A DNA stretch of 64,000 nucleotides from a phage. The position numbers were made by a program, and so were the translations under genes. This document shows positions 26,393 to 59,927 of this stretch, in pieces (positions within the stretch are counted from its first letter, which is position 1; each line of letters starts with the position of its first letter). Under the pieces are notes generated by a model. That model was not told where the DNA came from and made no database searches. It saw only the letters and a program-made list of their open reading frames with translations. The stretch lies in the sequence record PZ386958.1, one strand, 5' to 3'.

Positions 26393-26663
26393 AGAGAAGT
26401 GGGAGATTTTACCACTAGTCAGTGAGGGTGGGAATGGTTGTGAAATGTACATAATACGTGGTCATGTTCCAGAACCAATTGCACTTGAGATGATAAACAA
26501 TTTTACAGATGGTTCTTACAAAGATTTAGGAGAGCCAACTATAAAGCATCAATGGGTCAAACCTGTACCAGACAGCACAGGTAACTGTAGTGTACTTTAT
26601 CACGTTGTAGACCCTGCAAAATGCAAATCTGCAATGGCAGTAACAAACATAACCTTTGATTGA
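26385..26663 (+). CDS. Hypothetical protein
   Basis: 92-aa ORF. Confidence 0.3.
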   Translation: MAKEKWEILPLVSEGGNGCEMYIIRGHVPEPIALEMINNFTDGSYKDLGEPTIKHQWVKPVPDSTGNCSVLYHVVDPAKCKSAMAVTNITFD

Positions 26664-27556
26664 GAGAGAAAACTATGAAAACTGTTATTGAAGTCGTTGT
26701 CACCGCACAAGAGAAATTCTTCCACACAGAAAAATTTAATATCATCCAATTCCCATCTGGAGAAATTGGTGGAAACTTCTCTGAAGATTTTGTTAAGTTT
26801 ACTGAGCGTAATGCTGGTAAGGTTGACAATGTTATACTTACTGTGCAGGGATATGATAAAGATACACTGTTTGCATTAGCTTTGGCTAAGGATGCCGTTG
26901 ACAGTCTTGTCCCACATAAATCAGCGATGAAAACCGTTGTTTTCGGGTTCTTACCGAATGCTCGATATGACCGACATATGTTCAAAGGTGATTCAGCAGC
27001 ACTGAAAGCTTTTGCCAACCTCGTTAATGCAATGGGCTTTGATGCAGTATGTGCTCTTGACCCTCACAGTAATGTTGCAGAAAACTTATTTAAGTGCTTT
27101 CAGAGCATGAAGCAAAAAGATGTGGCAGTACACTTTGCAAGTGACCCGCGCATTGATTTCTTGGTAGCCCCAGATGCAGGTGCAGCTAAGAAGACTGAAG
27201 AGACTGCTAAAGAGGTGGATAAACCATACATCACAATGACTAAAATGCGTAACCTTAAGACTGGTGAAATTACTGGTATGCGAATCCTTGATGATGTTGA
27301 TTTGACCGATAAAACTGTTATGATTCTCGACGATATCTGTGATGGTGGTCGAACCTTCATAGAAGCAGCTAAACATCTTCGTGAAGCAGGTGCAAAACGT
27401 GTGGAACTCTATGTAACTCATGGCATTTTCTCTAAAGGTGTTGAAAGCTTACTTGACAATGGCATTGACCATATCTACACTACAAACACTTTAGGTGAAG
27501 CTAAAGACCGTGGCTTAACACATTATGGCCAAGTTACTGTAGCAACCATTGATTAG
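26660..27556 (+). CDS. Ribose-phosphate pyrophosphokinase (PRPP synthetase)-family protein; candidate ADPR-pyrophosphate synthetase
   Basis: 298 aa; PRPP-binding loop VMILDDICDGGRTF and RVELYVTHGIFS resemble Prs (VDDMIDTGGT ... RVFAYATHPIFS). Confidence 0.7.
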   Translation: MREKTMKTVIEVVVTAQEKFFHTEKFNIIQFPSGEIGGNFSEDFVKFTERNAGKVDNVILTVQGYDKDTLFALALAKDAVDSLVPHKSAMKTVVFGFLPNARYDRHMFKGDSAALKAFANLVNAMGFDAVCALDPHSNVAENLFKCFQSMKQKDVAVHFASDPRIDFLVAPDAGAAKKTEETAKEVDKPYITMTKMRNLKTGEITGMRILDDVDLTDKTVMILDDICDGGRTFIEAAKHLREAGAKRVELYVTHGIFSKGVESLLDNGIDHIYTTNTLGEAKDRGLTHYGQVTVATID

Positions 27557-27564: not shown

Positions 27565-28056
27565 ATGAATAAGGGTTATTTTGAAAAATACCTAATATAT
27601 GAACCAGATACAGGTTTATTAATTTGGAGAGTAACCCTTTGCAGTACCGCTATTGCTGGTAATGTGGCTGGCACAAGGTCTAAGAAGGGTTATATCCAAG
27701 TCCAGATAAATAAGAAGAGGTACTATGCACATAATATTGCATGGATTATGTCTGGAGGTGAGATACCAAGTGGATATGAGGTAGACCACATAGACCTTGA
27801 TAAAGCTAATAATAAGTTGGAGAACTTAAGACTTAGCACAAAGTCACAAAATCAGAGGAATAGAGGTATATACAAGAATAATAAAACTGGTGTGAAGGGT
27901 GTAAGTTTTTGTAAACAAACAGGTCTTTACAAAGCAAGAGTCATGCTTTACCATAAAGAATACTTTTGTGGAAGATTTAAAACGGTAGAAGAAGCAAAAG
28001 AAGCTGTAATTAAAAAGCGAATAGAACTTCATGGTGAGTTTGCAAGACATAACTAA
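27565..28056 (+). CDS. HNH homing endonuclease with AP2-type domain
   Basis: 163 aa; paralog of 14752-15252 (YEPDTGLLIWRV ... TGVKGVSFCKQTGLYKARV); inserted between Prs-like and NAMPT-like genes. Confidence 0.6.
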   Translation: MNKGYFEKYLIYEPDTGLLIWRVTLCSTAIAGNVAGTRSKKGYIQVQINKKRYYAHNIAWIMSGGEIPSGYEVDHIDLDKANNKLENLRLSTKSQNQRNRGIYKNNKTGVKGVSFCKQTGLYKARVMLYHKEYFCGRFKTVEEAKEAVIKKRIELHGEFARHN

Positions 28057-28070: not shown

Positions 28071-29852
28071 ATGAGTAAGTCACTTTACGCAGTACCAGCA
28101 GGTCTTAATGCAGATGCTTACAAGGCATCACATATATATCAGTATCCAGATGCTACGCAATATCTTATGTTGAACCTGACACCACGTAGTGACAAATGGT
28201 TTAACAGTCCCTTAGCAATTGATGGTGTAGTGGCTTTTGGTATTCAACGTTTTGTTAAAGATTACTTGATAGACCACTGGAATACCACCTTCTTTGAACG
28301 TGACAAAAAAGAAGCAATTGACGAAATCTTAGAAGTCATGAATGGTGTTCTGGGTAAAGATGCTATTGGTCGAGAACATTGGGAAGCACTTCACGACTTA
28401 GGTTATCTACCAGTTGAAGTATACGCTGTAGAAGAAGGCACAGTTGTCCCTATGCGTGTACCAATGATTGTCTTCCAGAACACTGTTTCGGGTTTCCATT
28501 GGGTAGCGGGGTATCTGGAAGATGCTTTCTCTGCTGAGATTTGGAAGGCTTGTACCATTGCAACTATTGCATTGCACTACAAACGTATCTGTAAGAAGTG
28601 GGCTGACCTTACTTGTGACAACGCCTTACATTTACCTTACCAGTGCCATGACTTTGCCATGCGTGGTATGTCTGGCTTTACTGATGACGCATTTAACGCT
28701 GTAGGTCACTTAACCAGCTTTAAAGGGACTGATAGCTTCCCTGCTGTGTATACAGCTAAACGCATCTATGGACAGTCCTACCCAATCTCTGATATTGGTA
28801 GTTCTGTACCAGCCACTGAACACTCTGTAATGTGTGCAAACATTGCTTGGGAAGGTGGTAACGAGTTGATTGAAGAAGAAAGACGCTTTAAAGGTGAGTT
28901 ACAAACCTTCCGTCGTTTCTTAACAGAGACTTACCCGACTGGTATTGCAAGTGTTGTTTCAGACACTTATAACTTCTGGAGAACTGTATCAGTCATATTA
29001 CCAGAACTCCGTAAAGAGATTATGGAACGTGATGGAAAACTGGTAATTCGTCCTGACTCTGGAGACCCTGTACATATTGTCACAGGCTATAAAGCAATCC
29101 ACTTAGAGTGTGCTAAAAAGGCTTATTACGAACACCTAAGCAAGCTGGAAGCCAGCGACACAATGTTGAATGCTGTTCTGAACATGAAGCTTGAAAACAT
29201 CAATTATGGTATTGCTGGATGGCTATTGTCAGAAGGCTACGAAATGGTTGTTGACAGAGAAGACTTTGAAGTTGCTGATACAGTGCTGTTGAAAAATGCT
29301 TATATGGTTGGTTCTGCAAACGTTGTAACACGTCCTGTAGCGGAGATTGATGGAGCTATCAAGACACTGTATAACATCTTTGGAGGAACTATCAACGCTA
29401 AAGGTTTTAAAGTACTGGATGAGCATATCGGACTTATTTATGGTGACTCTATCACGTTGGAACGTGCAAACGAAATCCTGAAGCGTTTGTATGAAATGGG
29501 TTTTGCAAGCTCTAACGTAGTGTTTGGTGTAGGTTCTTACACTTACCAGTACATGACTCGTGACACCTTTGCATTTGCTGTCAAAGCAACTCTTGCAAGC
29601 ATTGGTGGTAAAGAGATTATGCTTGCAAAAGACCCTAAAACAGATAGCGGTGTTAAGAAGTCTGCTTTTGGTGGTGTAGCACCTATGTGGGATGGTGATA
29701 AACTGAAAGCTGTAGATGGCTATGGATTCCAGAGCTTTGCAGATGTGCTTGAACATCCAGCTTGTGCTTTACGTTTAGTCTTTAGCGACTCTGAGCAGTT
29801 CGGTTACACAACTCTTGGTGATATTCGAAATAATATTGACAAGCAACTTTAA
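28071..29852 (+). CDS. Nicotinamide phosphoribosyltransferase (NAMPT)-family protein
   Basis: 593 aa; N-terminal YKASHIYQYPD..T and overall architecture resemble NAMPT/NadV; longer than typical. Confidence 0.65.
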   Translation: MSKSLYAVPAGLNADAYKASHIYQYPDATQYLMLNLTPRSDKWFNSPLAIDGVVAFGIQRFVKDYLIDHWNTTFFERDKKEAIDEILEVMNGVLGKDAIGREHWEALHDLGYLPVEVYAVEEGTVVPMRVPMIVFQNTVSGFHWVAGYLEDAFSAEIWKACTIATIALHYKRICKKWADLTCDNALHLPYQCHDFAMRGMSGFTDDAFNAVGHLTSFKGTDSFPAVYTAKRIYGQSYPISDIGSSVPATEHSVMCANIAWEGGNELIEEERRFKGELQTFRRFLTETYPTGIASVVSDTYNFWRTVSVILPELRKEIMERDGKLVIRPDSGDPVHIVTGYKAIHLECAKKAYYEHLSKLEASDTMLNAVLNMKLENINYGIAGWLLSEGYEMVVDREDFEVADTVLLKNAYMVGSANVVTRPVAEIDGAIKTLYNIFGGTINAKGFKVLDEHIGLIYGDSITLERANEILKRLYEMGFASSNVVFGVGSYTYQYMTRDTFAFAVKATLASIGGKEIMLAKDPKTDSGVKKSAFGGVAPMWDGDKLKAVDGYGFQSFADVLEHPACALRLVFSDSEQFGYTTLGDIRNNIDKQL

Positions 29853-35817: not shown

Positions 35818-35834
35818 AATTTCAAGGAGTATTA

Positions 35835-36719
35835 ATGAAACCAATGTTCAAATATCTTGGTGGTAAAACAAGAATATTAAAAGAGTATGAGCGTTTAGGT
35901 GTCTTTCCAGACAACTGTAAAAACTTCTATGACCTGTTTTCAGGTGGTGGTTCAGTAGCTATCTGGGCTTATAACAGATACCCAGAGGCAAAAGTGTTTA
36001 TTAATGAGATAAATAAACATATTATAGGTCTTTACACAACTTTCAGAGATGACTATGAAAACTTCATGGAAGAATTTGAGTACTTGTCAAAGAGGTACTT
36101 AGCCTTACCTATGCAGGAAGAGTATGCCGTGAAAGGCCAGCGTCATAACCGTCTACGCTATAAAATGTATTACAGTGTAAGAGAAGAACTTCTTTTGCTT
36201 GGTGAAGAAGGAACATATGACTACAGGTACTATGCCAGACAGTTTTTCCTTCAAAAACTAAGTTTTGGTGGAGTATGGCAGACTACTAAAGAGATGAGAG
36301 GTCACTATGCAACACCTTGTGGGTATTTACTGGAAGAAGAGATTTTCTTCACAAAAACTAAAAAATCACTATCCGAGTTTTACAGTTTTATCACCGATGA
36401 AAGGGTAATACTTAGCAGTGAACCTTATGACAGGGTTGACATAAAACATGGAGAAGACACAGTTATTTACTGTGACCCTCCATATATCAACACCAACCAG
36501 AAATATGGTGTAAAGTTTGACATTGAGATGTCTGTAAAATTATGCGAAGATATGGTTTCTTGGGGGGAGTTAGGCTCTAAAGTTTTGATGTCAAACTCTC
36601 AGTGGGATGGATGGGCAAACCTAATTCCTGAAAATTTTAACTTGACAGAGGTTAGTCATTCATACACAATACATGCACAGAGAAGCAAAGATATTAGCGA
36701 AGTAATTATTCACAACTAA
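35835..36719 (+). CDS. DNA N6-adenine methyltransferase (Dam-like)
   Basis: 294 aa; N-terminal FKYLGGK and catalytic DPPY (VIYCDPPYINT). Confidence 0.65.
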   Translation: MKPMFKYLGGKTRILKEYERLGVFPDNCKNFYDLFSGGGSVAIWAYNRYPEAKVFINEINKHIIGLYTTFRDDYENFMEEFEYLSKRYLALPMQEEYAVKGQRHNRLRYKMYYSVREELLLLGEEGTYDYRYYARQFFLQKLSFGGVWQTTKEMRGHYATPCGYLLEEEIFFTKTKKSLSEFYSFITDERVILSSEPYDRVDIKHGEDTVIYCDPPYINTNQKYGVKFDIEMSVKLCEDMVSWGELGSKVLMSNSQWDGWANLIPENFNLTEVSHSYTIHAQRSKDISEVIIHN

Positions 36720-36730
36720 GGTATCAAGTT

Positions 36731-37543
36731 ATGGCAAACAGCATCAATGTAGCACTGAATGGCAAGGTTGTTAAAATTCACACTAAGATTATCAGTGTCG
36801 AGGATTTTCTTAATGAAAAACGTTACAAAGAAAACCCTCGTCAACGAAATACACTTAAGCGTCTGAAAAGCAAACACCTTAATGGTGACGTATCACCAGA
36901 CCAAACAGTAGTTCATGTGGCTAAGTTCGGTAGTTCACTGTTCATCATTGATGGGCACTCACGTCGAGAGGCATGGAAAGTTGGTAACCTGACACGACCA
37001 GAAAACTTGATTGCAGTTATATACCATGTGAACTCCATATTGGATGTCACAGATTTGTACACTCATTTTGACTCTGAGTTAGCAAGAGAAAAACCTTCAG
37101 AAGTTTATTACGGAAATATGAAGATGATTTCTTTCAACCCAGAGTCAGAACTGATGAAAGCATCTTGGGCAACTGCTATTAAGTATGTTGCTGCATATTA
37201 CGGTGTGCAACAAGTCTCTAACACTGAAACAGTTAAATACCTTAATGACTTTAAAAATGAGCTGGAACAAATTGATTCTCTTGAAGTACAGCTTAAAGGT
37301 GTAGTAAACGCAAAACGGAAGTATTCTTCTGGGATTCGTGCAGCAATGTTAATTACACTACGCCTATATGGTGATGCTGCATTTTCCTTTTGGGAAGACT
37401 ATAATGACTACTGTGAAGGTATGTCTAACAAATATGTTACAGAGGCATACCAACTTGCATTACAAGCTGGTCGCGGAGCACAGGCTGATAAGTTGTTGAT
37501 GAATCAAGCGATTTCACTTGTCAACTATTACAGTCAAGAATAA
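36731..37543 (+). CDS. ParB/Srx-like nuclease domain protein
   Basis: 270 aa; FIIDGHSRREAW resembles ParB-type DGxHR motif. Confidence 0.4.
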   Translation: MANSINVALNGKVVKIHTKIISVEDFLNEKRYKENPRQRNTLKRLKSKHLNGDVSPDQTVVHVAKFGSSLFIIDGHSRREAWKVGNLTRPENLIAVIYHVNSILDVTDLYTHFDSELAREKPSEVYYGNMKMISFNPESELMKASWATAIKYVAAYYGVQQVSNTETVKYLNDFKNELEQIDSLEVQLKGVVNAKRKYSSGIRAAMLITLRLYGDAAFSFWEDYNDYCEGMSNKYVTEAYQLALQAGRGAQADKLLMNQAISLVNYYSQE

Positions 37544-38909: not shown

Positions 38910-39110
38910 ATGGCTGACTTCTGCAAAGACTGTTCTATCGAAATGTTCGGACGTGATACAGGTGACTTAAAAGGTCTCATCACTGAAGATGACTTTAAAG
39001 CTGGTTATGCAATGCCAGTAATCTGTGAAGGTTGCGGGTGTATCTGGGTAGACCACGAAGGACAACGTGTAAAACCTTCAGAAGATAAAGAATCTTGGGA
39101 GAGATGTTAA
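38910..39110 (+). CDS. Small cysteine-containing protein
   Basis: 66 aa; CKDC ... CEGCGC. Confidence 0.3.
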   Translation: MADFCKDCSIEMFGRDTGDLKGLITEDDFKAGYAMPVICEGCGCIWVDHEGQRVKPSEDKESWERC

Positions 39111-39896
39111 ATGGGTATTGTAAAAATCATCAATGGGGATATCTTCTCCGCATTTGATAAAGGTAAGTTTGATATCATTGGTCACGGTTGCAACTGTATG
39201 AACTTAATGGGTTCAGGTATCGCTGACAAGATTTCTAAACTTTACCCAAAAGTGTATGATACTGACACAGAAGTTTACCTGTTTGCAGGCGGCATTCGTC
39301 ACAAACCCTGTGAAAATTTACTAGGTAATTTATCTGTAGCACGTTTAAAACAAGGTCGTATAGCTAACCTTTACACCCAACTTCATACTGGTAAAGATGC
39401 CCGATATAGTGCTTTAGAGTCATCTTTGAAACAGCTTAACAGATACTGTGAAGTCAATCAGTTGAAGAAAGTCGGGTTACCTATGATTGGTGCAGGCATC
39501 GGTGGGCTAGACCCTCAAGCCGTCACAGTTATCATTAATCAAGTGATGAAGAGTGTAGATGTGTATCTGTATGTCTATGAAGGAGAGATGTACCACAAGT
39601 TACGCTCAGGTTGGAAGAACTACTGTGAACCAGAATACTTTGCAGGTGTAGTAACGTTCACAGACAATACAGTTACCCTCTTCAGACGAAGAAAAGGTAA
39701 GATACATCAAAGTAACCCTCCGGTTGAAAAGATGTCTCTTAGTAACGCTCTAGTTACCCACCTGTCGAAGAGCAATCACAGGATTGCAGTAACATTTGGT
39801 AGTGATGCAGACACTTATATCTATGCAAGAACTGATGAGGATATCGAGACAGTTTTCTCTTCGCCAGAAGTTACCTTCTTAGACGCAAAGAACTAA
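39111..39896 (+). CDS. Macrodomain protein (TARG1/OARD1-like ADP-ribose hydrolase fold) with C-terminal extension
   Basis: 261 aa; GDIFSAFDKGKFDIIGHGCNCMNLMGSGIADKI parallels the TARG1-type segment (EGDLF...LAHCIS.DC.MGAGIA). Confidence 0.5.
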   Translation: MGIVKIINGDIFSAFDKGKFDIIGHGCNCMNLMGSGIADKISKLYPKVYDTDTEVYLFAGGIRHKPCENLLGNLSVARLKQGRIANLYTQLHTGKDARYSALESSLKQLNRYCEVNQLKKVGLPMIGAGIGGLDPQAVTVIINQVMKSVDVYLYVYEGEMYHKLRSGWKNYCEPEYFAGVVTFTDNTVTLFRRRKGKIHQSNPPVEKMSLSNALVTHLSKSNHRIAVTFGSDADTYIYARTDEDIETVFSSPEVTFLDAKN

Positions 39897-39974
39897 GAAA
39901 CTCTGTAGAGTATTCACAATAGACTAAGCCTTTCTTATCTGGTAAATTTTTCAGGTAAGGAGGGCTTTTTCATT

Positions 39975-40180
39975 TCAGGATTGTGCAGGTAGAGTTCTGT
40001 AGAGAAATCTGTAGAGAGAATTTTGAACTCCAAAGAGAAAATTCATTTTCAAACTGTGCAGGTAATCTCCAAAGAGCTTTTTCATTTTCAAAACGTGCAG
40101 ACCCCGCTCAGGTCGGGCAAGAAAAATCATTTTAGAATTGTGCAGGTAGGTGGGTGCAGGTGGGGATGTCGCCATTTCTC
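39975..40180. repeat. Direct-repeat (iteron-like) cluster: about 4 copies of TCATTTTCA(A/G)(A/G)N(T/C)GTGCAGGTA plus TCTGTAGAG triplet
   Basis: Visible at about 39962-39995, 40043-40075, 40080-40105, 40125-40170 inside a 508-bp gene-free region. Confidence 0.5.
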
Positions 40181-40379
40181 ACAAGGCTACCACATCTGGA
40201 AATAAAAGTCAACAGAAAAATTTGTAGTGGATTGAAAAATAATTCTTGATTGTAGTTCTGTTTTGTGGTAGTCGCGCGCACCCGTTTCATTACAATCTTT
40301 GCAAAAAATATTTTTAAAATTCCTATTGACTCTTTGAGTATGGTTATCTAATATTTGCATCAGACGGGCAATCAAGCCC

Positions 40380-40404
40380 ACTTCCTAAACTGGAGAATCT
40401 AAAA
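40380..40404 (+). promoter_or_regulatory. Conserved translation-initiation module CCTAAACTGGAGAATCTAAAAATG (first copy)
   Basis: Same 3' module as the cassette-array repeat units. Confidence 0.4.
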
Positions 40405-40611
40405 ATGCTTTACAGTCGCGAATTGATGGTTACAACTAACGTTAACACAAAGGCAAAACGTTTTTACATGCAAATCTGTGGCGTATGGTCCAGAATATCA
40501 GAAGCTGACTATTGCAACTATGTAGAAACGGCTATTAATTCTAATTGCTATCTGACAAGAAATACAAGAAAGTACATAAGACAGACAGCAATTTACTACT
40601 ACGATAAATAA
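40405..40611 (+). CDS. Cassette-array small protein
   Basis: 68 aa; followed immediately by repeat unit. Confidence 0.4.
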   Translation: MLYSRELMVTTNVNTKAKRFYMQICGVWSRISEADYCNYVETAINSNCYLTRNTRKYIRQTAIYYYDK

Positions 40612-40697
40612 AGTACTTTACAATGGGCTTATAGTTCGATAAAGTAAGCCCCAGATAAAGAGCTTTACCACTCAATCCTAAATTGGAGAACTAAAAA
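40609..40697 (+). repeat. Cassette repeat unit, class A (hairpin GGGCTTAT..ATAAGCCCC plus RBS)
   Basis: TAAAGTACTTTACAATGGGCTTATAGTTCGATAAAGTAAGCCCCAGATAAAGAGCTTTACCACTCAATCCTAAATTGGAGAACTAAAAA; begins at stop codon of upstream gene. Confidence 0.7.
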
Positions 40698-41078
40698 ATG
40701 GCATATCGTGCACCTAAATTCATCAACAAAGACAACTTTCGCAACGCACTGGAGAAGTCACTTGATGAAAATTTTAAAGGTAACATTATTGTTGTTCACT
40801 CGTTTAATTTCAAGTATGATATCAACGGGAATAGAATCAACCATTACACGGCAACCATGTTAGATGGCACACTATCAAGTGAAAAAGCCGTACTGAATGC
40901 ACTTGCTGGACGTGGTAAAAACCTGATAAAATGCGATAAGAGACGTTATCAGGGTGGCGCATATGGTTATGATGATGCTGTTTATCATCTTGAAAATATG
41001 GGCTATCAAGTAGAAAAAGCTGGAGTGTCTCAAATAATCGGTAGTGATGGTTATGTAACAATCTTCAAAATTAAATAA
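40698..41078 (+). CDS. Cassette-array small protein
   Basis: 126 aa. Confidence 0.4.
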   Translation: MAYRAPKFINKDNFRNALEKSLDENFKGNIIVVHSFNFKYDINGNRINHYTATMLDGTLSSEKAVLNALAGRGKNLIKCDKRRYQGGAYGYDDAVYHLENMGYQVEKAGVSQIIGSDGYVTIFKIK

Positions 41079-41164
41079 AGTACTTTACAAGGGGCTTATA
41101 GTTCGATAAAGTAAGCCCCAGATAAAGAGCTTTACCACTCAATCCTAAATTGGAGAACTAAAAA
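41076..41164 (+). repeat. Cassette repeat unit, class A
   Basis: Near-identical to 40609-40697. Confidence 0.7.
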
Positions 41165-41422
41165 ATGGCTATTATCAAAAACGTTGTAATTGCTGCAAAA
41201 ACTCGTGATGACGCTCGCGTTATGGCTAAAAAGTTATGCGGAAAAGTGGTTGACAACGGAAAACAATCTGCTGTAAGGTGGGGCGTGAAGGCTGATAAAC
41301 AGTTAACTTTAAAACGCAGTTCAAACAACCTTTTTAAAGGTGTAAAATCACTCGGTAAAGTGAACGTTTTTACCAAAAAAGGCTATAAAATGCACTTATC
41401 ATTAACTGGCAATTTAATCTGA
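41165..41422 (+). CDS. Cassette-array small basic protein
   Basis: 85 aa. Confidence 0.4.
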   Translation: MAIIKNVVIAAKTRDDARVMAKKLCGKVVDNGKQSAVRWGVKADKQLTLKRSSNNLFKGVKSLGKVNVFTKKGYKMHLSLTGNLI

Positions 41423-41510
41423 TAAAGTACTTTACAAGGGGCTTAAAAGTTGATATCTTAAGCCCCAGATAAAGAGCTTTACCACTAAATCCTAAACTGG
41501 AGATTCAAAA
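41420..41510 (+). repeat. Cassette repeat unit, class A variant
   Basis: Hairpin GGGGCTTAAAAGTTGATATCTTAAGCCCC then CAGATAAAGAGCTTTACCACTAAATCCTAAACTGGAGATTCAAAA. Confidence 0.65.
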
Positions 41511-42023
41511 ATGAAAACTGTAGACGCTACCTTTGAAGTTGTAAAAGAAAAATTCACCATTATTTATGAAGCTGTCAATTGCTTTGAAGCAAGCCATAAT
41601 CTTGATAATTGGAAGTTTACAGATGACCATCAAGGCGGTGTGACGATTAAAAATCCTAACTGTCAGCGTAATGATTTTAAATATGCAATTCCTTTAAATT
41701 ATAGCCTTAAGCAGCTTTCTAGTGACTATGCAAAACAAGGCCGGGAAAACCCATCAAAAGAGGCTTATATCAGCTTACAGAAAGAACTAGAAAGAGATTT
41801 AGAGGCTTCAGAGTACAACCTTGCCGCGAAAGTTGTGGATGCAAACGGTAACACGGTTTTAGAAAGTTTTTATCTTGGTTATGCTTTCGATTGGTGCTAT
41901 CGTGACGGCGATGATTTAGAGGATAGACTAAAAGAAGAGGTGAGCAATTCAGACGCAGAAACTGAAGTATTAGAACGTTTGGAATCGTTGAAAGACTCAG
42001 TGATGAATATCTTTAAGAACTAA
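41511..42023 (+). CDS. Cassette-array protein (acidic)
   Basis: 170 aa. Confidence 0.4.
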   Translation: MKTVDATFEVVKEKFTIIYEAVNCFEASHNLDNWKFTDDHQGGVTIKNPNCQRNDFKYAIPLNYSLKQLSSDYAKQGRENPSKEAYISLQKELERDLEASEYNLAAKVVDANGNTVLESFYLGYAFDWCYRDGDDLEDRLKEEVSNSDAETEVLERLESLKDSVMNIFKN

Positions 42024-42115
42024 ATAGATTTCTTTACACGGGGCTAACAAGCTGATATAATAGCCCCAGATAAAGAGATTTATCAAATAAAACCCTTAAA
42101 CTAGGAGATTCTAAA
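42021..42115 (+). repeat. Cassette repeat unit, class A variant
   Basis: Hairpin GGGGCTAACAAGCTGATATAATAGCCCC then CAGATAAAGAG...CTTAAACTAGGAGATTCTAAA. Confidence 0.6.
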
Positions 42116-42412
42116 ATGAAATTATCAAATCAAGTGCGTGAAAATCTGAGCAAATTACTCAACAAAATTGATTTCATTGAAACATCAAGAAATAGTCATG
42201 ATGTTATGGAATGGTTACACGGCAAAATAAAAGGCCGTCGTGTAGTGATTTGTTTATGGAATAGTTGCAGGGAGTATAAAAAACCTGTATTGCAAGTAAA
42301 TATTTATGATGATACTTTTAAAAGTCCAGTAAAGTCTAAAAGCGATTTATTAGAATCCTATGAGATAACTTTAAATGGCAAAGTATCACGTAAAGAGGAA
42401 ACACCATGTTAA
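42116..42412 (+). CDS. Cassette-array small protein
   Basis: 98 aa. Confidence 0.4.
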   Translation: MKLSNQVRENLSKLLNKIDFIETSRNSHDVMEWLHGKIKGRRVVICLWNSCREYKKPVLQVNIYDDTFKSPVKSKSDLLESYEITLNGKVSRKEETPC

Positions 42413-42738
42413 TGACTGGTATCACTGCAATCATTGCCATTTTCGCGCTATATAAGGCATATAAAGCCTATAATCTAGCAAATAAGGCAATCACACAGCA
42501 GGTTAGCAATAACCTTGTAGAAAGCTTTCTAGGGCGCCTCAGTGATGAGCAAATAAAGCGGCTAGAGATGAGCTTTAGATTTAAAGCGAAAACCTATCAG
42601 ATTAGTGACATTTTCAAAGATGACTATCAACTTATTGATGATTATAATTCACTGATAAACGCTTTAAATATCAGTGACTTAAAAGACTACTACGCTGTAA
42701 TTGTTCAAGAATTGAGCAAACGAAAACAAAGTGTTTGA
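42406..42738 (+). CDS. Cassette-array small membrane protein
   Basis: 110 aa; N-terminal hydrophobic helix; overlaps previous stop. Confidence 0.4.
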   Translation: MLMTGITAIIAIFALYKAYKAYNLANKAITQQVSNNLVESFLGRLSDEQIKRLEMSFRFKAKTYQISDIFKDDYQLIDDYNSLINALNISDLKDYYAVIVQELSKRKQSV

Positions 42739-42827
42739 CACTGATTTTTAGATAGGCTAAATTACACATCAACGGGGAGGGAATGACCTTCCCCACTAAA
42801 TAAAGTCCTAAACTGGAGATTCTGAAA
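42736..42827 (+). repeat. Cassette repeat unit, class B (TTGACA box plus GGGGAGGGAATGACCTTCCCC hairpin plus RBS)
   Basis: TGACACTGATTTTTAGATAGGCTAAATTACACATCAACGGGGAGGGAATGACCTTCCCCACTAAATAAAGTCCTAAACTGGAGATTCTGAAA. Confidence 0.7.
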
Positions 42828-43100
42828 ATGTATACTACTAACAACGGTCGCACCTTAAATGTCACCTTGCGTCACTATGTAGACGGTGTGATGTGCTTTG
42901 AAGATTTACGGGCTGAGCAACACATCTTAAATTGGCAAGTTGCAGGACTCCAAAAAACTGCTACAGGATACGGGAAAAAGATTCCAACCAGTTGGAAAGT
43001 ATACTACGAAGGACGTTTGCGCAGAATTTATCAGGATGTGCAAAGCAATAGTGCATCTAGTTACATCATAGTAAAAGGTAAAAAGCTGCATTTAGTATAA
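42828..43100 (+). CDS. Cassette-array small protein
   Basis: 90 aa. Confidence 0.4.
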   Translation: MYTTNNGRTLNVTLRHYVDGVMCFEDLRAEQHILNWQVAGLQKTATGYGKKIPTSWKVYYEGRLRRIYQDVQSNSASSYIIVKGKKLHLV

Positions 43101-43186
43101 AGTACTTTACAAGGGGCTTATAGTTCGATAAAGTAAGCCCCAGATAAAGAGCTTTACCACTCAATCCTAAATTGGAGAACTAAAAA
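43098..43186 (+). repeat. Cassette repeat unit, class A
   Basis: Near-identical to 40609-40697. Confidence 0.7.
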
Positions 43187-43591
43187 ATGGCTATTAATAA
43201 CCGTGAATTATCAATTTTAAAAGCACGTTTGACCGTTAACCGGATTAATGTTATCACATCATCAGCACCAGATAAAACACTGCAAAACATTATTGGGAAG
43301 ATTCAAAGTGTTATCTTAGACGTTGAAAGCGTAAAAAATTCATTGGCTGACGTTGCAGCAGGTATCACACTAGACGGTGCGCAATATGAAATGTCCGACA
43401 TGTTAGGCAAATCTAAGGTAATGAATATAGAGTTAGATTTGAAAATGTTCCGATTTGCTGTTAAAGTGTGGCTATCTGTCGAGTATGATGCTAACTTTGC
43501 AATCGCTGACTTTTTCGCCACTTGGTTGCAGCGTAATTTGACTAATCATGACTTCCGCGATATCTGTGATGCAATTTATGCAGAACTCTAA
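43187..43591 (+). CDS. Cassette-array protein
   Basis: 134 aa. Confidence 0.4.
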   Translation: MAINNRELSILKARLTVNRINVITSSAPDKTLQNIIGKIQSVILDVESVKNSLADVAAGITLDGAQYEMSDMLGKSKVMNIELDLKMFRFAVKVWLSVEYDANFAIADFFATWLQRNLTNHDFRDICDAIYAEL

Positions 43592-43699
43592 AAAAAAAAA
43601 AATTTTGTTGACACTGATTTTTAGATAGGCTAAATTACACATCAACGGGGAGGGAATGACCTTCCCCACTAAATAAAGTCCTAAACTGGAGATTCAAAA
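43589..43699 (+). repeat. Cassette repeat unit, class B (preceded by A13 run)
   Basis: Identical core to 42736-42827. Confidence 0.7.
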
Positions 43700-43903
43700 A
43701 TGGCTATTATTAATGGTTTAACCATTGAAACTACACACATCAAAGATGTCAAAGTTGGTGATATAGTCCTTTCCCACGGCGTAGAAAAAACTGTCACTGC
43801 AAAGGATATCAAAGAGGATTCTTTCATGGGTAGGACTCTCTTCGGTGATTCTTATTGCTTAGGCTATCTTGCAGTTTTAAAAGTTGTCAAAAATAACAAA
43901 TAA
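43700..43903 (+). CDS. Cassette-array small protein
   Basis: 67 aa. Confidence 0.4.
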   Translation: MAIINGLTIETTHIKDVKVGDIVLSHGVEKTVTAKDIKEDSFMGRTLFGDSYCLGYLAVLKVVKNNK

Positions 43904-43990
43904 AGTACTTTACAAGGGGCTTATAGTTCGATAAAGTAAGCCCCAGATAAAGAGCTTTACCACTCAATCCTTAAACTAGGAGATTCAAAA
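43901..43990 (+). repeat. Cassette repeat unit, class A
   Basis: Near-identical to 40609-40697 (3' part CCTTAAACTAGGAGATTCAAAA). Confidence 0.7.
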
Positions 43991-44239
43991 ATGATGAACT
44001 ATTTCAATATCCCTGATACCTGCCGACTGTTGACACAAGAAGAAAATTTGGGTAAACCTTTTCTTTACCACATGCCAGATAGCACACCAAAAACTTATAG
44101 TTACAATGTTAACCGTTTTACCGCATACGCTGCAAAGAACGGTTATAAGTTGGTTACTCAAAAAGTAATGCTGGTTACAAGCGCTGACGAGATTCCTACG
44201 GTTGCAGTTAAACTAATTTTCTCAAAGAAAGTTAAATAA
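43991..44239 (+). CDS. Cassette-array small protein
   Basis: 82 aa. Confidence 0.4.
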   Translation: MMNYFNIPDTCRLLTQEENLGKPFLYHMPDSTPKTYSYNVNRFTAYAAKNGYKLVTQKVMLVTSADEIPTVAVKLIFSKKVK

Positions 44240-44326
44240 AGTACTTTACAGGGGGCTTATAGTTCGATAAAGTAAGCCCCAGATAAAGAGCTTTACCACT
44301 CAATCCTTAAACTAGGAGATTCAAAA
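44237..44326 (+). repeat. Cassette repeat unit, class A
   Basis: Near-identical to 43901-43990. Confidence 0.7.
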
Positions 44327-44868
44327 ATGAAATGTTTTCACGGTACTACTCAAGAAAATTTCCTCAACCTTATTAATAACGGTGATAAACCATCAGGCGC
44401 ATGGAATTGTTCTGATATGGATGGGAATTTTTACGTTTACCAGAGAATAAAATCTATGGCGACGATGAGGAAGAAATAATCTTTGAAGGTATCCAGCAAG
44501 CTCTGGGCAATGCCACTATCACCGCAGCTTTTCAGATGAAAACTCAAAACATTGTTATCTTGGAACTTGAGATTCCAGAAGATGAGCTAAACGATGATTA
44601 TTCTTGTGATAATATGTCGAGCGTGGCAAGTTTTACAGAATATTTCGATTTAAATTGGATTAAAAAGGTTTACATCACTGAATTTAATGCTATGTATTCG
44701 CCTTTTTGTCTTCCTTCACTGGATAACCCAAATATGAATTATCTTGATGAGACATTAGAACTACTTGCTAAAAGTGTTCAACAATCGGACAGTATTCAGG
44801 TTTTTTGTGACATCATGGACACACTAACGGAAAACATCGCAGAAGAGGATTTAAAGAGCTTTTTCTAA
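44327..44868 (+). pseudogene. Cassette gene split across two frames (frameshifted gene or programmed -1 frameshift candidate)
   Basis: ATG at 44327 opens a 50-codon frame (MKCFHGTTQENFLNLINNGDKPSGAWNCSDMDGNFYVYQRIKSMATMRKK) that stops at 44479; the -1 frame is open from about 44393 to the stop of the track ORF 44536-44868; no repeat unit between the parts. Confidence 0.4.
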
Positions 44869-44899
44869 AAACCTATGCAATCACCTTATAAACACTATT

Positions 44900-44920
44900 C
44901 AGCCCCTTGTAGGGGCTTTT
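44900..44920 (+). terminator. Hairpin (cagccccttgtaggggctttt)
   Basis: GC stem followed by T-run. Confidence 0.45.
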
Positions 44921-44934
44921 AAGAGGCTTAAATC

Positions 44935-45168
44935 ATGCTTACAACCGTTTATCTTATCCTTTCTATATGTAATGGTCATTCATGCGATTTTAAAGGGCTT
45001 GAAGAGTTTACAGGAAGTAAAGAAAATGCTATTCAAGTTTGCCAGATAGCGAGACAAGACTACCCCGCCAGTGATGACATACAATGCTACTTTAAGACAG
45101 AAGATGAAGACGGTATCTATTTCGATAGTGTAGATGGTCAATATGAAATAATTATAGAAAAAGACTAG
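44935..45168 (+). CDS. Cassette-array small protein
   Basis: 77 aa. Confidence 0.4.
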   Translation: MLTTVYLILSICNGHSCDFKGLEEFTGSKENAIQVCQIARQDYPASDDIQCYFKTEDEDGIYFDSVDGQYEIIIEKD

Positions 45169-45257
45169 ACAAGCCTGATAAAAATCTGTAAATTATCAAT
45201 CAACGGGGAGGGGATGACCTTCCCCACTAAATAAAATCCTAAACTGGAGATTCTAAA
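45166..45257 (+). repeat. Cassette repeat unit, class B variant
   Basis: ...ATCAATCAACGGGGAGGGGATGACCTTCCCCACTAAATAAAATCCTAAACTGGAGATTCTAAA. Confidence 0.65.
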
Positions 45258-45599
45258 ATGGCTTATGTAACTGTAATTACCAATAAAGAAAATTCATCTT
45301 GGTCAACTCAAGTCAGTGATAAGATGTCACCTATGCAGTGCCTAAAATACTTTGAGCAGTGGAACAAAGGCGAGGATGTCAGCCCCTTTCAAGTAATGCA
45401 GATTATCCATACAGATAACGAAGGAAACAAAACGACACTTAATAGCGAGTATTACGCAAATCGTTTTGAGAGTCGAGTTGAAACGATGAAGGGGCTGCGT
45501 GAGGCCGGATATGGGCACATTGCCGCCTTGTTATGGGATAGCCTGCTAAAAAATCAGCGTATCAGCTATGTAAAACCTGAAAAAATATTCATCAGTTAA
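45258..45599 (+). CDS. Cassette-array protein
   Basis: 113 aa. Confidence 0.4.
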   Translation: MAYVTVITNKENSSWSTQVSDKMSPMQCLKYFEQWNKGEDVSPFQVMQIIHTDNEGNKTTLNSEYYANRFESRVETMKGLREAGYGHIAALLWDSLLKNQRISYVKPEKIFIS

Positions 45600-45628
45600 T
45601 CAACAACTTACAAAAAACTTTTAAAAAA

Positions 45629-45665
45629 GTGTTGACAATACCCCTTGACATTGGTAACTTTGTTC
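45629..45665 (+). promoter_or_regulatory. Promoter-like tandem TTGACA boxes (gtgttgacaataccccttgacattggtaact)
   Basis: Two -35-like hexamers in intergenic region. Confidence 0.35.
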
Positions 45666-45749
45666 GAGGGGGTTTATCTAAAAGGGATTCACTTAAAAGA
45701 TTCTTTATAGATAAGCTCAAAAAATTACTTGCAATCAACTATCAAAACA

Positions 45750-45819
45750 AGTAAATTACTAATCAACGGGGAGGGATAACCTCCCTACTAAGTAAAGTCC
45801 TTAAACTAGGAGATTCAAA
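45750..45819 (+). repeat. Cassette repeat unit, class C (GGGGAGGGATAACCTCCC hairpin plus RBS)
   Basis: GTAAATTACTAATCAACGGGGAGGGATAACCTCCCTACTAAGTAAAGTCCTTAAACTAGGAGATTCAAA. Confidence 0.65.
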
Positions 45820-46350
45820 ATGAACAAGTTCAAAGCTATCAACTTCATTCGTTCAAATGCTGTAATGTCAAAGCCTGTTAAAGATACCTATGAATTTCGT
45901 TGCAATGGTGTACACTTTGCAACCATCACTAAATCAGAAAACGGGGCTTATTACGTCCATCGTCGTAATGTTTCTACTGTTGTAGTTTCTCATTTTATGC
46001 AAGCTGTCGCGGAACTTCTCCCGATGTTTTTAGGTCTTTACTTAGATGAGTGTAAAAACGTTCACAACCACGTTAAAAACCTTTTAAACGGTTATAAAAT
46101 GGCTTATGAACGTTCTATCAAGTCACTAAACAAGTTTTACAATGCACCTGAAAATACTGTATCAATAGCCTATGCTGCAAATGGTGAGATGGTAAACTTA
46201 TCCAATGTGGAAGAAATCAAGCTGCATGATTTACGCCCTAGCGGTTACTCTAAGACTCTCGGTGAAGGTTTAACGTTCAATATCAAGAACTTAGAGAAAA
46301 CTTTAAAAGATATTGAAAAAGATATTGACGAGACAACCAAAAATCTGTAA
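45820..46350 (+). CDS. Cassette-array protein
   Basis: 176 aa. Confidence 0.4.
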   Translation: MNKFKAINFIRSNAVMSKPVKDTYEFRCNGVHFATITKSENGAYYVHRRNVSTVVVSHFMQAVAELLPMFLGLYLDECKNVHNHVKNLLNGYKMAYERSIKSLNKFYNAPENTVSIAYAANGEMVNLSNVEEIKLHDLRPSGYSKTLGEGLTFNIKNLEKTLKDIEKDIDETTKNL

Positions 46351-46416
46351 ATTGTCAATCAACGGGGAGGGAATGACCTTCCCCACTAAATAAAGTCCTA
46401 AACTGGAGTTATCAAG
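46346..46416 (+). repeat. Cassette repeat unit, class B
   Basis: CTGTAAATTGTCAATCAACGGGGAGGGAATGACCTTCCCCACTAAATAAAGTCCTAAACTGGAGTTATCAAG. Confidence 0.65.
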
Positions 46417-46680
46417 ATGGAAAACGTAGAATTAACCACACTTTTACAAATTGCAACCGATAAAGAAGACGTAGCTTTATTTCACCGCATCGAAAGTGAT
46501 TTGTTCAATGGTGAAATCATCAAAGAATCTTACGAAGTTGTCGGATTCAAAGACGGTAAAGCGTTTGGCTTTTTTGACCTCGACAAAGGCAAAGCGGTTA
46601 CAAAATATGATGTTTTATCTTGTGAAATTCTGACAAAATACAACGAAAAAAGGCTTGCAACATACGCCAATATGCAGTAA
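46417..46680 (+). CDS. Cassette-array small protein
   Basis: 87 aa. Confidence 0.4.
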   Translation: MENVELTTLLQIATDKEDVALFHRIESDLFNGEIIKESYEVVGFKDGKAFGFFDLDKGKAVTKYDVLSCEILTKYNEKRLATYANMQ

Positions 46681-58689: not shown

Positions 58690-58766
58690 CTCTGTTTAGC
58701 TCAGCTTGGTAGAGCGTTCCGTTTGGGGCGGTAAGGCCGGAGGTTCAAGTCCTCCAACAGAGACCA
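58690..58766 (+). tRNA. tRNA-Pro (anticodon TGG)
   Basis: Acceptor CTCTGTT/AACAGAG, T-arm GGAGG-TTCAAGT-CCTCC, loop TTTGGGG, 3' CCA encoded. Confidence 0.6.
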
Positions 58767-58773
58767 AATTAAT

Positions 58774-58851
58774 GTTCCAGTAGACAAAATGGTATAGTCA
58801 CCACTCTTTCAAAGTGGATATCTGAGGGTTCAAATCCCTTCTGGAACGCCA
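58774..58851 (+). tRNA. tRNA-Glu (anticodon TTC)
   Basis: Acceptor GTTCCAG/CTGGAAC, anticodon stem CCACT/AGTGG loop CTTTCAA, T-loop TTCAAAT, CCA encoded. Confidence 0.6.
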
Positions 58852-58857
58852 GTTTTG

Positions 58858-58931
58858 ACAGAAGACCAATTACAGCAAACTTAATCTTATTCATCTGAAG
58901 GTAAATCGGACAAAGAAGAGATTTGGTCTGG
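58858..58931 (+). ncRNA. Bracket stem-loop element a (ACAGAAGACCaatTACAGCAA ... tTTGGTCTGG)
   Basis: 5' AGACCAA pairs with 3' TTGGTCT; conserved TACAGCAA; one of four copies with compensatory changes. Confidence 0.45.
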
Positions 58932-58942
58932 TCATTAAGAAT

Positions 58943-59019
58943 TGCGGGTATAGAGAAAGGGCGTCTCACATGTCTCATTAGCATGGTATCGGCAGGTTCG
59001 ACTCCTGCACCCGCCTCCA
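58943..59019 (+). tRNA. tRNA with CAT anticodon (Met or Ile-lysidine)
   Basis: Anticodon stem CATGT/GCATG loop CTCATTA; T-arm GCAGG-TTCGACT-CCTGC; 1-72 mismatch; CCA encoded. Confidence 0.5.
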
Positions 59020-59024
59020 AATTT

Positions 59025-59090
59025 ACAGAAGACCGTTTACAGCAATATTTATTAAATTTTTAGCGGAAAAATTGAAAGATACGGTCTGGT
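59025..59090 (+). ncRNA. Bracket stem-loop element b
   Basis: ACAGAAGACCGTTTACAGCAA ... ACGGTCTGG; AGACCGT pairs with ACGGTCT. Confidence 0.45.
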
Positions 59091-59102
59091 AATACTAAAC
59101 AT

Positions 59103-59179
59103 GGTTAGGAAGCACATAAGGTATGTGCGGTCGCCTGTTAAGCGAATGGCACAGGGTTCGAATCCCTGACTAACCGCCA
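59103..59179 (+). tRNA. tRNA-Asn (anticodon GTT)
   Basis: Loop CTGTTAA; T-arm CAGGG-TTCGAAT-CCCTG; acceptor 3' ACTAACC-G-CCA. Confidence 0.55.
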
Positions 59180-59248
59180 AATTTAGGAGAGAAGCGATTG
59201 CTCACCGATTTGTAAGGTGCAAGTCCTTAGCCTGAATAGAAATTAAAT

Positions 59249-59336
59249 GTGTCGTTATCCCGTAGATGGTAGCGGTGGGGACTGTAAATCCCTTGTCATT
59301 GAGACTCGGTAGGTTCTACTCCTACACGGCACACCA
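59249..59336 (+). tRNA. tRNA-Tyr (anticodon GTA), long variable arm
   Basis: 88 nt; anticodon stem GGGGA/TCCCT loop CTGTAAA; acceptor GTGTCGT/ACGGCAC; CCA encoded. Confidence 0.55.
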
Positions 59337-59341
59337 ATAAA

Positions 59342-59419
59342 GGTTATGTAGTTTAATTTGGTTAAAATACTCCCCTGTCACGGGAGATGATGAGGGTTCA
59401 AATCCCTTCGTAACCGCCA
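59342..59419 (+). tRNA. tRNA-Asp (anticodon GTC)
   Basis: Anticodon stem CTCCC/GGGAG loop CTGTCAC; T-arm GAGGG-TTCAAAT-CCCTT; CCA encoded. Confidence 0.6.
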
Positions 59420-59450
59420 ATTTTGAGAGGGCTATTTAGCCCCTCCCTTA

Positions 59451-59478
59451 AATGGTTCTTACGAGTATCCTTTAAAGG
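59451..59478 (+). ncRNA. Conserved small hairpin GGTTCTTACGAG(T/A)(A/G)TCCTT(T)AAA (copy 1)
   Basis: Second copy at 62447-62474. Confidence 0.3.
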
Positions 59479-59480
59479 AG

Positions 59481-59553: not shown

Positions 59554-59565
59554 CTCAACAAATTT

Positions 59566-59698: not shown

Positions 59699-59701
59699 TA
59701 A

Positions 59702-59841: not shown

Positions 59842-59847
59842 TTTAAT

Positions 59848-59923: not shown

Positions 59924-59927
59924 AAAT

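What the first reader, a model, noticed from the sequence alone, without database searches (positions are those of the whole stretch)
39111..39896. TARG1/OARD1-like macrodomain protein with a ~100-aa C-terminal extension
The N-terminal 150 aa carry the TARG1-type macrodomain signature (GDIF...FD.IGHGCNCMNLMGSGIA). Macrodomains of this type remove ADP-ribose from proteins or nucleic acids, as the DarG antitoxin does, so a phage copy could reverse ADP-ribosylation by host toxins or defence systems. It lies in the same early block as the NAD+ module, suggesting a shared NAD/ADP-ribose countermeasure theme.
Basis: partly seen in the sequence, partly recalled or inferred. Interest (0 to 1): 0.5.

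Follow-up and report, generated by a model that had tools for sequence, protein, structure and literature searches.

The report
Phage DarG-like macrodomain with orphan tail
This FelixO1-type phage gene encodes an enzyme domain that most likely strips ADP-ribose off DNA to defeat the bacterial DarTG defence, as its T4 relative Tk.4/AdfM appears to do, fused to a conserved 105-residue domain of unknown fold found almost only in this phage group.

Summary
Window 39111..39896 (+) is an intact 261-aa ORF in a Felixounavirus genome. Residues 1-156 form a confident macrodomain, and residues 157-261 form a linker plus a separately folded extension.

The macrodomain belongs to the ALC1-like/TARG1/DarG/Poa1p class. 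Its closest characterised relative is T4 Tk.4 (same PHROG, 35% identity, E=1e-23). A 2025 preprint named Tk.4 AdfM because deleting it sensitises T4 to DarTG2.

The "TARG1 signature" is only partly right. The TARG1/DarG catalytic lysine is an invariant glutamine here (Q90, motif NLYTQ), and TARG1 D125 is a glycine. That matches the Gln-type active site of SCO6735, which still cleaves thymidine-linked ADP-ribose.

The link to the NAD+ salvage genes, 9 kb upstream, is unsupported.

Verdict: a new two-domain variant of a recently described phage counter-defence family. Moderate interest.

The parts
39111..39896 (+). Complete CDS, 261 aa plus stop: macrodomain protein with a C-terminal extension (phrog_335)
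   Evidence: ORF list. phrog_335 E=5e-112 over aa 1-260. About 258 phage records carry a full-length orthologue.
39111..39578 (+). Macrodomain, aa 1-156. Key residues: H25-G-C-N28-C, G34-x-G36-I-A38, N86-L-Y-T-Q90, P124-x-I-G127-A-G129-I-G131
   Evidence: Pfam Macro. AF2 plus Foldseek to DarG/TARG1/Poa1p. Residues invariant in 82 bacterial and phage homologues. 35% identity to T4 Tk.4/AdfM.
39378..39380 (+). Codon for Q90, at the position of TARG1 K84, DarG K80 and SCO6735 Q85
   Evidence: HMMER alignments to TARG1. BLASTP to PhiKZ gp104 'PTK'. A family member aligned to both DarG structures puts TQ on TK. SCO6735 equivalence comes from PMC9411070.
39192..39194 (+). Codon for N28, equivalent to DarG N22, PhiKZ AdfM N23 and SCO6735 N27
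   Evidence: Alignment to Mtb DarG 'VNTVNCVGVMGKGIA' and Poa1p 'IHSCNCNGSWGGGIA'. Mutant data are from PMC5179494, PMC13309987 and PMC9411070.
39579..39635 (+). Linker, aa 157-175: a short helix followed by a low-confidence segment
   Evidence: AF2 pLDDT below 50 at aa 167-173; helix at 158-166.
39636..39893 (+). Orphan C-terminal domain, aa 176-261: six beta strands plus one helix, near-neutral charge
39097..39103 (+). Shine-Dalgarno-like GGGAGAG, 7 nt before the ATG and inside the upstream ORF. That ORF's stop (39108-39110) abuts the start codon.
   Evidence: Sequence read directly.
39926..39967 (+). Intrinsic-terminator-like hairpin plus T-run, 30 nt after the stop. The macro gene appears to be the last gene of its transcription unit.
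   Evidence: Terminator scan. A 'terminator' feature is also annotated in the matched 3-kb region of Escherichia phage Barry.

Best explanation
The gene encodes a two-domain phage counter-defence enzyme of the T4 Tk.4/AdfM lineage. The N-terminal macrodomain binds the ADP-ribose that a host DarT2-type toxin attaches to thymidine in single-stranded phage DNA. It hydrolyses the base-ribose bond and so restores a template that can be replicated. Catalysis probably follows the Gln-type mechanism described for SCO6735. In that mechanism the glutamine (here Q90), held in place by the conserved asparagine (here N28), positions the distal ribose and the transition state, and an activated water does the chemistry. 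This differs from the lysine nucleophile of TARG1 and DarG. The 105-residue C-terminal part is a separately folded, lineage-restricted accessory domain. It is not basic and it evolves about twice as fast as the catalytic domain. It therefore more likely mediates a protein-protein contact (with a host toxin, a replisome or SSB component, or itself) than DNA binding. What is shown here: the fold, the family, the residue equivalences, the conservation, the selection and the distribution. What is inferred: the substrate, the anti-DarTG2 role and the role of the C-terminal domain.
For: The protein is in the same PHROG (335) as T4 Tk.4 and matches it at 35% identity, E=1e-23, across the whole macrodomain. 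A tk.4 knockout sensitises T4 to DarTG2 (preprint). The best solved-structure neighbours are the DarG macrodomains and TARG1. The DarG HMMs of PADLOC and NCBIfam match at E~1e-13. H25, N28, N86, T89, Q90, P124, G127 and G129 are invariant in 82 homologues, and N86/T89/Q90 were not part of the search patterns. SCO6735 has Gln at the equivalent site, removes dT-ADPr from DNA and rescues DarT toxicity; its Q85A mutant is dead and N27S is nearly dead (PMC9411070). The macrodomain has pI ~9, which fits a nucleic-acid substrate. Both domains are under purifying selection (dN/dS 0.07 and 0.18). One FelixO1-like contig shows a whole-gene allelic replacement (flanks 92-94% identical, protein 40%), as is common for arms-race genes.
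Against: No activity or phenotype has been measured for any FelixO1-type protein, and I found no paper on it. Identity to Tk.4 is only 35%, and the Tk.4 result is a preprint with genetics only and no biochemistry. The biochemically proven phage AdfM (PhiKZ gp104) is a different, Lys-type lineage that barely aligns with Tk.4. The H-x-C-N-C motif is shared with Poa1p, an ADP-ribose-1''-phosphate phosphatase. SCO6735's Val25 position is Gly here. Nothing shows what the C-terminal domain binds. Inter-domain geometry was not assessed (pTM 0.62).
Confidence: 0.6

Rival explanations
1. The protein is a small-molecule ADP-ribose-derivative hydrolase, either a Poa1p-like ADP-ribose-1''-phosphate phosphatase or an O-acetyl-ADP-ribose deacetylase. 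It would act in nucleotide or NAD+ metabolism alongside the phage's Nampt/PRS salvage genes.
For: The N-terminal motif IGHGCNCMNLMGSGIA aligns best with Poa1p IHSCNCNGSWGGGIA. Poa1p structures are among the top fold matches. Public records annotate the gene as 'phosphatase' or 'O-acetyl-ADP-ribose deacetylase'. The phage carries Nampt and a PRS-like gene. In Vibrio phage AG74 a homologue sits next to a PRS-like gene.
Against: Profile scores are stronger to TARG1 and DarG than to Poa1p. The only experimental datum in this subfamily is anti-DarTG2. The NAD genes lie 9 kb away across unrelated genes. The public annotations are transferred names, not tests.
Confidence: 0.15
2. The protein is an eraser of protein- or RNA-linked ADP-ribose. 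It would reverse modification of host or phage proteins or mRNA by other ADP-ribosyltransferase toxins or defence systems, with the C-terminal domain selecting the target.
For: ALC1-like macrodomains (TARG1, SCO6735) act on both protein and DNA substrates (PMC9411070). A variable accessory domain could confer target choice.
Against: There is no direct evidence. No ADP-ribosyltransferase is annotated in the two stretches of the related phage HMD-P8 that I inspected (record 1-50000 and 56072-83070). The closest functional datum concerns DNA.
Confidence: 0.15
3. The macrodomain is non-catalytic and acts as a binder or sponge for ADP-ribose-derived molecules such as immune signals. The argument is that the catalytic Lys/Asp dyad is missing.
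For: TARG1 K84 and D125 are replaced by Q90 and G131.
Against: The same Gln is essential for catalysis in SCO6735. N28, Q90 and the glycine loops are strictly invariant in 82 homologues, as expected for an enzyme. T4 Tk.4 carries the same Gln and is required against DarTG2.
Confidence: 0.05

Closest known systems
T4 Tk.4 = AdfM (anti-DarT factor Macrodomain), bioRxiv 10.1101/2025.11.20.689424
   Same: Same PHROG (335). 35% identity over the whole macrodomain. The same HGCNC, NLYTQ and P-x-IGAGIG motifs, including Gln at the DarG-K80 position.
   Different: Tk.4 is 155 aa and macrodomain only. The FelixO1-type protein adds a 105-aa linker plus orphan domain. The genomic neighbourhood also differs: tk.4 lies next to vs and tk in T4.
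PhiKZ gp104 = AdfM (PMC13309987)
   Same: A phage stand-alone macrodomain that removes DarT2 ADP-ribose from DNA. It shares the conserved Asn (N23 there, N28 here).
   Different: Only 24% identity (E=1e-4). It keeps the DarG-type lysine ('FPTK') and is a single domain imported into the phage nucleus. It barely aligns with Tk.4. It is therefore a separate lineage that carries the same name.
DarG antitoxin of DarTG2 (Taq 5M31/5M3E, Mtb 5M3I; NCBIfam NF048014)
   Same: Best structural match. The macrodomain is followed by a second domain, so the overall two-domain logic is shared.
   Different: Gln replaces the catalytic K80. The score of 50.7 bits is far below the equivalog cut-off of 250. The C-terminal domain shows no sequence or fold similarity to the DarG C-terminal domain. 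No darT gene is present.
SCO6735 of Streptomyces coelicolor (PDB 5E3B; PMC9411070)
   Same: An ALC1-like macrodomain with Gln at the catalytic-lysine position and the supporting Asn. It is stand-alone, not part of a TA pair, and cleaves dT-ADPr.
   Different: Val25, which is SCO6735-specific, is Gly26 here. The family uses an H-G-C-N-C motif. There is no C-terminal domain in SCO6735.
Human TARG1/OARD1 (4J5R etc.)
   Same: Best sequence-profile match (E=8e-16) and the same fold class.
   Different: The catalytic dyad K84/D125 is replaced by Q90/G131.
Yeast Poa1p (6LFQ)
   Same: Shares the H-x-C-N-C...G-x-G-I-A N-terminal motif and the fold.
   Different: Weaker overall profile score. Poa1p is known as a small-molecule phosphatase. 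It has no C-terminal domain.

Membership tests
Macrodomain superfamily (Pfam PF01661) | Sequence profile match above the curated threshold | tested here: met
   31.4 bits against a cut-off of 22, aa 25-141.
Macrodomain superfamily (Pfam PF01661) | Alpha/beta/alpha macro fold | tested here: met
   Confident AF2 model (most blocks of aa 11-130 at pLDDT 86-96). Foldseek TMt 0.8-0.86 to DarG and TARG1.
Macrodomain superfamily (Pfam PF01661) | ADP-ribose binding | not testable with these tools
   Needs ITC, thermal shift or a co-crystal structure.
TARG1/OARD1 | Catalytic Lys84-Asp125 dyad | tested here: not met
   Q90 and G131 occupy these positions in HMMER alignments.
DarG antitoxin (NF048014 equivalog) | Whole-protein score at or above the curated cut-off | tested here: not met
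   50.7 bits against 250. Only profile positions 4-153 of 338 are matched.
DarG antitoxin | Catalytic Lys80 | tested here: not met
   Gln at this position.
DarG antitoxin | C-terminal DarT-binding domain | tested here: not met
DarG antitoxin | Adjacent darT toxin gene | tested here: not met
   tblastn with P. aeruginosa DarT2 finds nothing in the window. This used a single query, so sensitivity is limited.
AdfM, T4 Tk.4 type | Homology to Tk.4 across the macrodomain with shared motifs | tested here: met
   E=1e-23, 35% identity, same phrog_335.
AdfM, T4 Tk.4 type | Protects the phage against DarTG2 | not testable with these tools
   Needs plaque assays with a deletion mutant.
Gln-type ALC1-like hydrolases (SCO6735-like) | Gln at the catalytic-lysine position plus the supporting Asn | tested here: met
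   Q90 and N28 are invariant in 82 homologues. The equivalence runs through the TARG1 and DarG alignments and the structural alignment in PMC9411070.
Gln-type ALC1-like hydrolases (SCO6735-like) | Val/Ile at the SCO6735 Val25 position | tested here: not met
   If N28 equals N27, position 26 is an invariant Gly. The proposed role of Val25 is through its backbone, so this does not exclude the mechanism.
Poa1p-like | H-x-C-N-C ... G-G-G-I-A N-terminal motif | tested here: met
   Direct alignment to 6LFQ/6LFT.
Poa1p-like | ADP-ribose-1''-phosphate phosphatase activity | not testable with these tools
   Needs an enzyme assay.

The most novel reading that the evidence does not exclude
The orphan C-terminal domain is a second, non-enzymatic neutralisation module. 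It would bind and inhibit DarT2 or another ADP-ribosyltransferase toxin directly, or tether the eraser to the phage replisome. In that case FelixO1-type phages would have independently re-created the two-layer logic of the DarG antitoxin (hydrolysis plus stoichiometric inhibition) using an unrelated fold. The domain's faster evolution and the allelic replacement would then reflect tracking of variable host toxins.
Probability: 0.15. Interest if true: 0.6.

Novelty: new variant of a known kind. Interest (0 to 1): 0.4.

Why it matters
Phage macrodomains that erase DNA ADP-ribosylation were recognised only in 2025-2026, in T4 Tk.4 and PhiKZ gp104. This protein matters in two ways. First, it extends the T4-type lineage to the FelixO1 group, which is widely used in Salmonella and E. 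coli phage therapy and typing, and it predicts that these phages resist DarTG2. Second, it shows that the T4-type lineage uses a Gln-type active site rather than DarG's lysine. The two proteins now called AdfM are therefore mechanistically distinct families. The fused orphan domain is a tractable handle for asking whether phage erasers also use toxin binding or localisation. If the macrodomain alone suffices, the domain remains an unexplained but conserved addition.

Tried and rejected
1. C-terminal domain as a known family. Pfam gave only a sub-threshold NAC hit at E=0.09. NCBIfam, PADLOC and PDB sequence searches (single sequence and profile) gave nothing significant.
3. C-terminal domain elsewhere as a stand-alone or differently fused protein. 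An exhaustive hmmsearch returned only FelixO1-like proteins and fragments, plus two spurious repetitive eukaryotic proteins, a retrotransposon polyprotein and a WSC-repeat protein.
4. Homology of the C-terminal domain to the DarG C-terminal domain. Rejected at the sequence and fold level, as above.
5. Bacterial homologues as DarTG antitoxins. No DarT2 lies within +-4 kb of 80 loci. This is a weak negative because only one query was used.
6. Hypervariability of the locus in general. The orthologues that are 62-68% identical sit in equally diverged flanks (70-80% DNA identity), so they are ordinary orthologues. Only contig L003 is mosaic.
7. Internal translation start at the invariant M160. AAGGAG precedes it, but only 2 nt before the ATG, and the other genera encode EDKM or EDVM there. 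Judged unlikely.
8. An RNA gene in the 508-bp gap after the gene. Rfam found nothing.
9. Literature on FelixO1 macrodomains or on DarTG sensitivity of Felixounavirus. None found, and LeRoux 2022 is not held.

Full report
**What is there.** Window 39111..39896 (+) is an intact 261-aa ORF. The stop codon of the upstream 66-aa ORF (39108-39110) abuts its ATG, and a GGGAGAG Shine-Dalgarno-like element lies 7 nt upstream. A terminator-like hairpin with a T-run follows at 39926-39967. The gene therefore looks like the last cistron of a rightward transcription unit.

The window is a Felixounavirus genome. A 3-kb stretch around the gene is 92-95% identical to more than 200 FelixO1-like Escherichia, Salmonella, Shigella and Citrobacter phages. 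In those records the gene is called 'phosphatase', 'O-acetyl-ADP-ribose deacetylase' or 'hypothetical protein'.

**The macrodomain.**
- Pfam Macro is matched above threshold.
- The whole protein matches phrog_335 at E=5e-112.
- A profile of 17 homologues hits TARG1 (8e-16), Mtb DarG (1e-13), Taq DarG, Poa1p, BT_1257 and SCO6735 in the PDB.
- PADLOC DarG and NCBIfam antitoxin_DarG match at about 1e-13, but only over the macrodomain part of those profiles and far below the equivalog cut-off.
- AlphaFold2 (17-sequence alignment, mean pLDDT 83.6) gives a confident macro fold for aa 1-156. Foldseek ranks Taq DarG first (E=1.9e-10), then TARG1, Mtb DarG and Poa1p.

**The closest characterised relative.** tblastn shows about 2,800 phage records with a homologue. 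Only 258 of them cover at least 80% of the protein. The rest, including T4, match aa ~3-160 only.

T4 Tk.4 is in the same PHROG and aligns at 35% identity, E=1e-23, over the entire macrodomain. A 2025 preprint found tk.4 as the single T4 gene depleted in a transposon screen on a DarTG2 host. It showed that a clean knockout becomes DarTG2-sensitive and named the gene adfM.

A 2026 Cell Reports paper independently named PhiKZ gp104 AdfM. It showed in vitro removal of DarT2 ADP-ribose from DNA and reduced activity in the N23A mutant. However, gp104 is only 24% identical to the present protein and barely aligns with Tk.4. The two 'AdfM' proteins are different macrodomain lineages, and the window protein belongs to the T4 type.

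**The active site.** Alignments to TARG1, to PhiKZ gp104 and of a bacterial family member to both DarG structures all give the same result. The family's invariant 'T-Q' (Q90 here) sits on the catalytic lysine (TARG1 K84, DarG K80, gp104 'PTK'). TARG1 D125 corresponds to G131. The TARG1 dyad is thus absent.

This is not a sign of inactivity. SCO6735, another ALC1-like macrodomain, has Gln85 at this position. It efficiently cleaves thymidine-linked ADP-ribose and rescues DarT toxicity. Its Q85A mutant is inactive, and N27S (the Asn that positions the Gln) is nearly so (PMC9411070). DarG N22A and K80A data are in PMC5179494.

The equivalent Asn is N28 here. Across 80 bacterial and 2 phage short-form homologues retrieved from GTDB genomes and IMG/VR, the residues H25, G26, C27, N28, C29, N86, T89, Q90, P124, G127 and G129 are invariant. 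HGCNC and IGAGI were search patterns, so their invariance is partly built in. N86, T89 and Q90 were not patterns, so their invariance is informative.

The N-terminal H-x-C-N-C motif is shared with yeast Poa1p. The family therefore combines a Poa1p-like N-terminal motif with an SCO6735-like Gln, and it differs from each characterised branch. The macrodomain is basic (pI ~9).

**The C-terminal extension.** Residues 157-261 form a short helix, a low-confidence linker (aa 167-173) and a six-strand plus one-helix domain. The model has mean pLDDT 76, with core blocks at 74-87.

It has no significant match in any library searched:
- Pfam, NCBIfam, PADLOC and PDB sequences, by single sequence or profile.
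- BFVD, which returns only its own orthologue from phage SUSP2.
- A profile search that read all 1.84 billion cluster representatives. It found five proteins: three FelixO1-like macro proteins or fragments and two spurious repetitive eukaryotic proteins.
- The 80 bacterial homologues, none of which carries it.

The domain is nevertheless real and constrained. All 27 IMG/VR orthologues keep the frame. Nei-Gojobori dN/dS is 0.18 among close relatives, against 0.07 for the macrodomain. Among the other Ounavirinae genera it is 0.29-0.35 against 0.14.

It evolves about twice as fast as the macrodomain (44-53% against 74-79% identity) and is near-neutral to acidic (pI 4.6-8.7). That pattern fits a protein-protein interaction module better than a DNA-binding one, although this is inference.

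DarG also carries a second domain, which binds DarT (PMC5179494; PMC11825919). No sequence or fold similarity to it was detected, so any analogy would be convergent.

**Evolutionary context.** Orthologues at 62-68% identity sit in equally diverged flanks and are ordinary orthologues of other Ounavirinae genera. One metagenomic FelixO1-like contig (L003) is 92-94% identical to the window up to about position 39252 and again from 40082. Its macro protein (P0009, which stands for 96 member sequences) is only 40% identical, so the gene was replaced as a cassette.

A more distant two-domain relative (P0010) lies in an unrelated uncultured phage. Its C-terminal homology is weak (about 23% identity).

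**The NAD+ module.** A PRS-like gene (26660-27556) and Nampt (28071-29852) are confirmed. They lie 9.3 kb upstream, separated by rIIA/B, a transglycosylase, PNK, a DNA methyltransferase, a ParB-like ORF, spanins and small ORFs. Nothing links them functionally to the macro gene beyond shared orientation.

**Conclusion.** The most likely function (confidence about 0.6) is a T4-Tk.4-type anti-DarT2 ADP-ribosyl-DNA glycohydrolase that uses a Gln-type active site, fused to a lineage-restricted accessory domain of unknown role. The rivals are a Poa1p-like metabolite phosphatase or deacetylase (0.15), a protein or RNA de-ADP-ribosylase (0.15) and a non-catalytic binder (0.05).

It is not a DarG and not a TARG1 by their defining features. 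It is best filed as a new two-domain variant of the AdfM (Tk.4) family. Interest is moderate. The kind of system is already described, but two points are not in the literature I could search: the orphan domain, and the Gln-versus-Lys split between the two proteins called AdfM.

Noticed in passing
window 40608-44335: Six copies of a ~90-100-nt intergenic cassette, each directly upstream of a small ORF. It starts ATAAAGTACTTTACAAGGGGCTTATAGTTCGATAAAGTAAGCCCC and runs on to GGAGA..ATG. It contains a promoter-like TTTACA-17-TAAAGT whose -10 element lies inside a GGGGCTTA/TAAGCCCC hairpin, followed by an RBS. It resembles the promoter-early stem-loop repeats reported from memory for hyperplastic regions of T4-like phages. 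A second repeat family occurs at 42718-46417.
   Followed up: partly
window 39897-40404: A 508-bp non-coding gap after the macro gene holds three tandem ~34-nt repeats (40028-40145). The segment 40082-40338 is conserved at 82% in the otherwise mosaic contig L003. There is no Rfam match.
   Followed up: partly
L003 (Logan SRR18206799) against window 35830-37532 and 39252-40082: This FelixO1-like contig lacks the DNA methyltransferase and the ParB-like ORF of the window (an indel cassette). It carries a 40%-identical replacement allele of the macro gene between flanks that are 92-94% identical.
   Followed up: partly
window 38910-39110: A 66-aa Cys-rich ORF (CxxC ... CxxCxC, phrog_2210, no Pfam match) is apparently translationally coupled to the macro gene, and the pair is conserved in L003. 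Its function is unknown.
   Followed up: partly
window 27565-28056, 14716-15252, 15249-15746: Probable homing-endonuclease genes. One ORF annotated HNH lies between the PRS-like gene and Nampt. An HNH_3+AP2 ORF and a SegE-type GIY-YIG ORF lie further upstream.
   Followed up: partly
window 58690-63556: A cluster of 25 tRNA genes on the + strand.
   Followed up: no
NC_055848.1 (Vibrio phage AG74) 107847-108263: A short-form homologue of the macrodomain is annotated next to a 'ribose-phosphate pyrophosphokinase' gene. This is the only hint seen of a physical macro and NAD/PRPP gene linkage.
   Followed up: no
P0014 (339 aa, metagenomic): A macrodomain of the same HGCNC/TQ family is fused to a cREC_REC (cyclic-phosphate processing receiver) domain, PF20274. 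This is a different C-terminal fusion partner.
   Followed up: no
L033 3001-3486: In an uncultured phage, a short-form (161 aa) homologue lies between a dCMP-deaminase-like ORF and a family-A DNA polymerase (both judged by eye from the translations, not scanned). That places it in a DNA-metabolism module.
   Followed up: no
window 39580-39590: AAGGAG lies 2 nt before the codon of M160, a Met that is invariant at the start of the linker. An internal start is unlikely, because the spacing is too short and the SD-like sequence is not conserved in other genera.
   Followed up: partly
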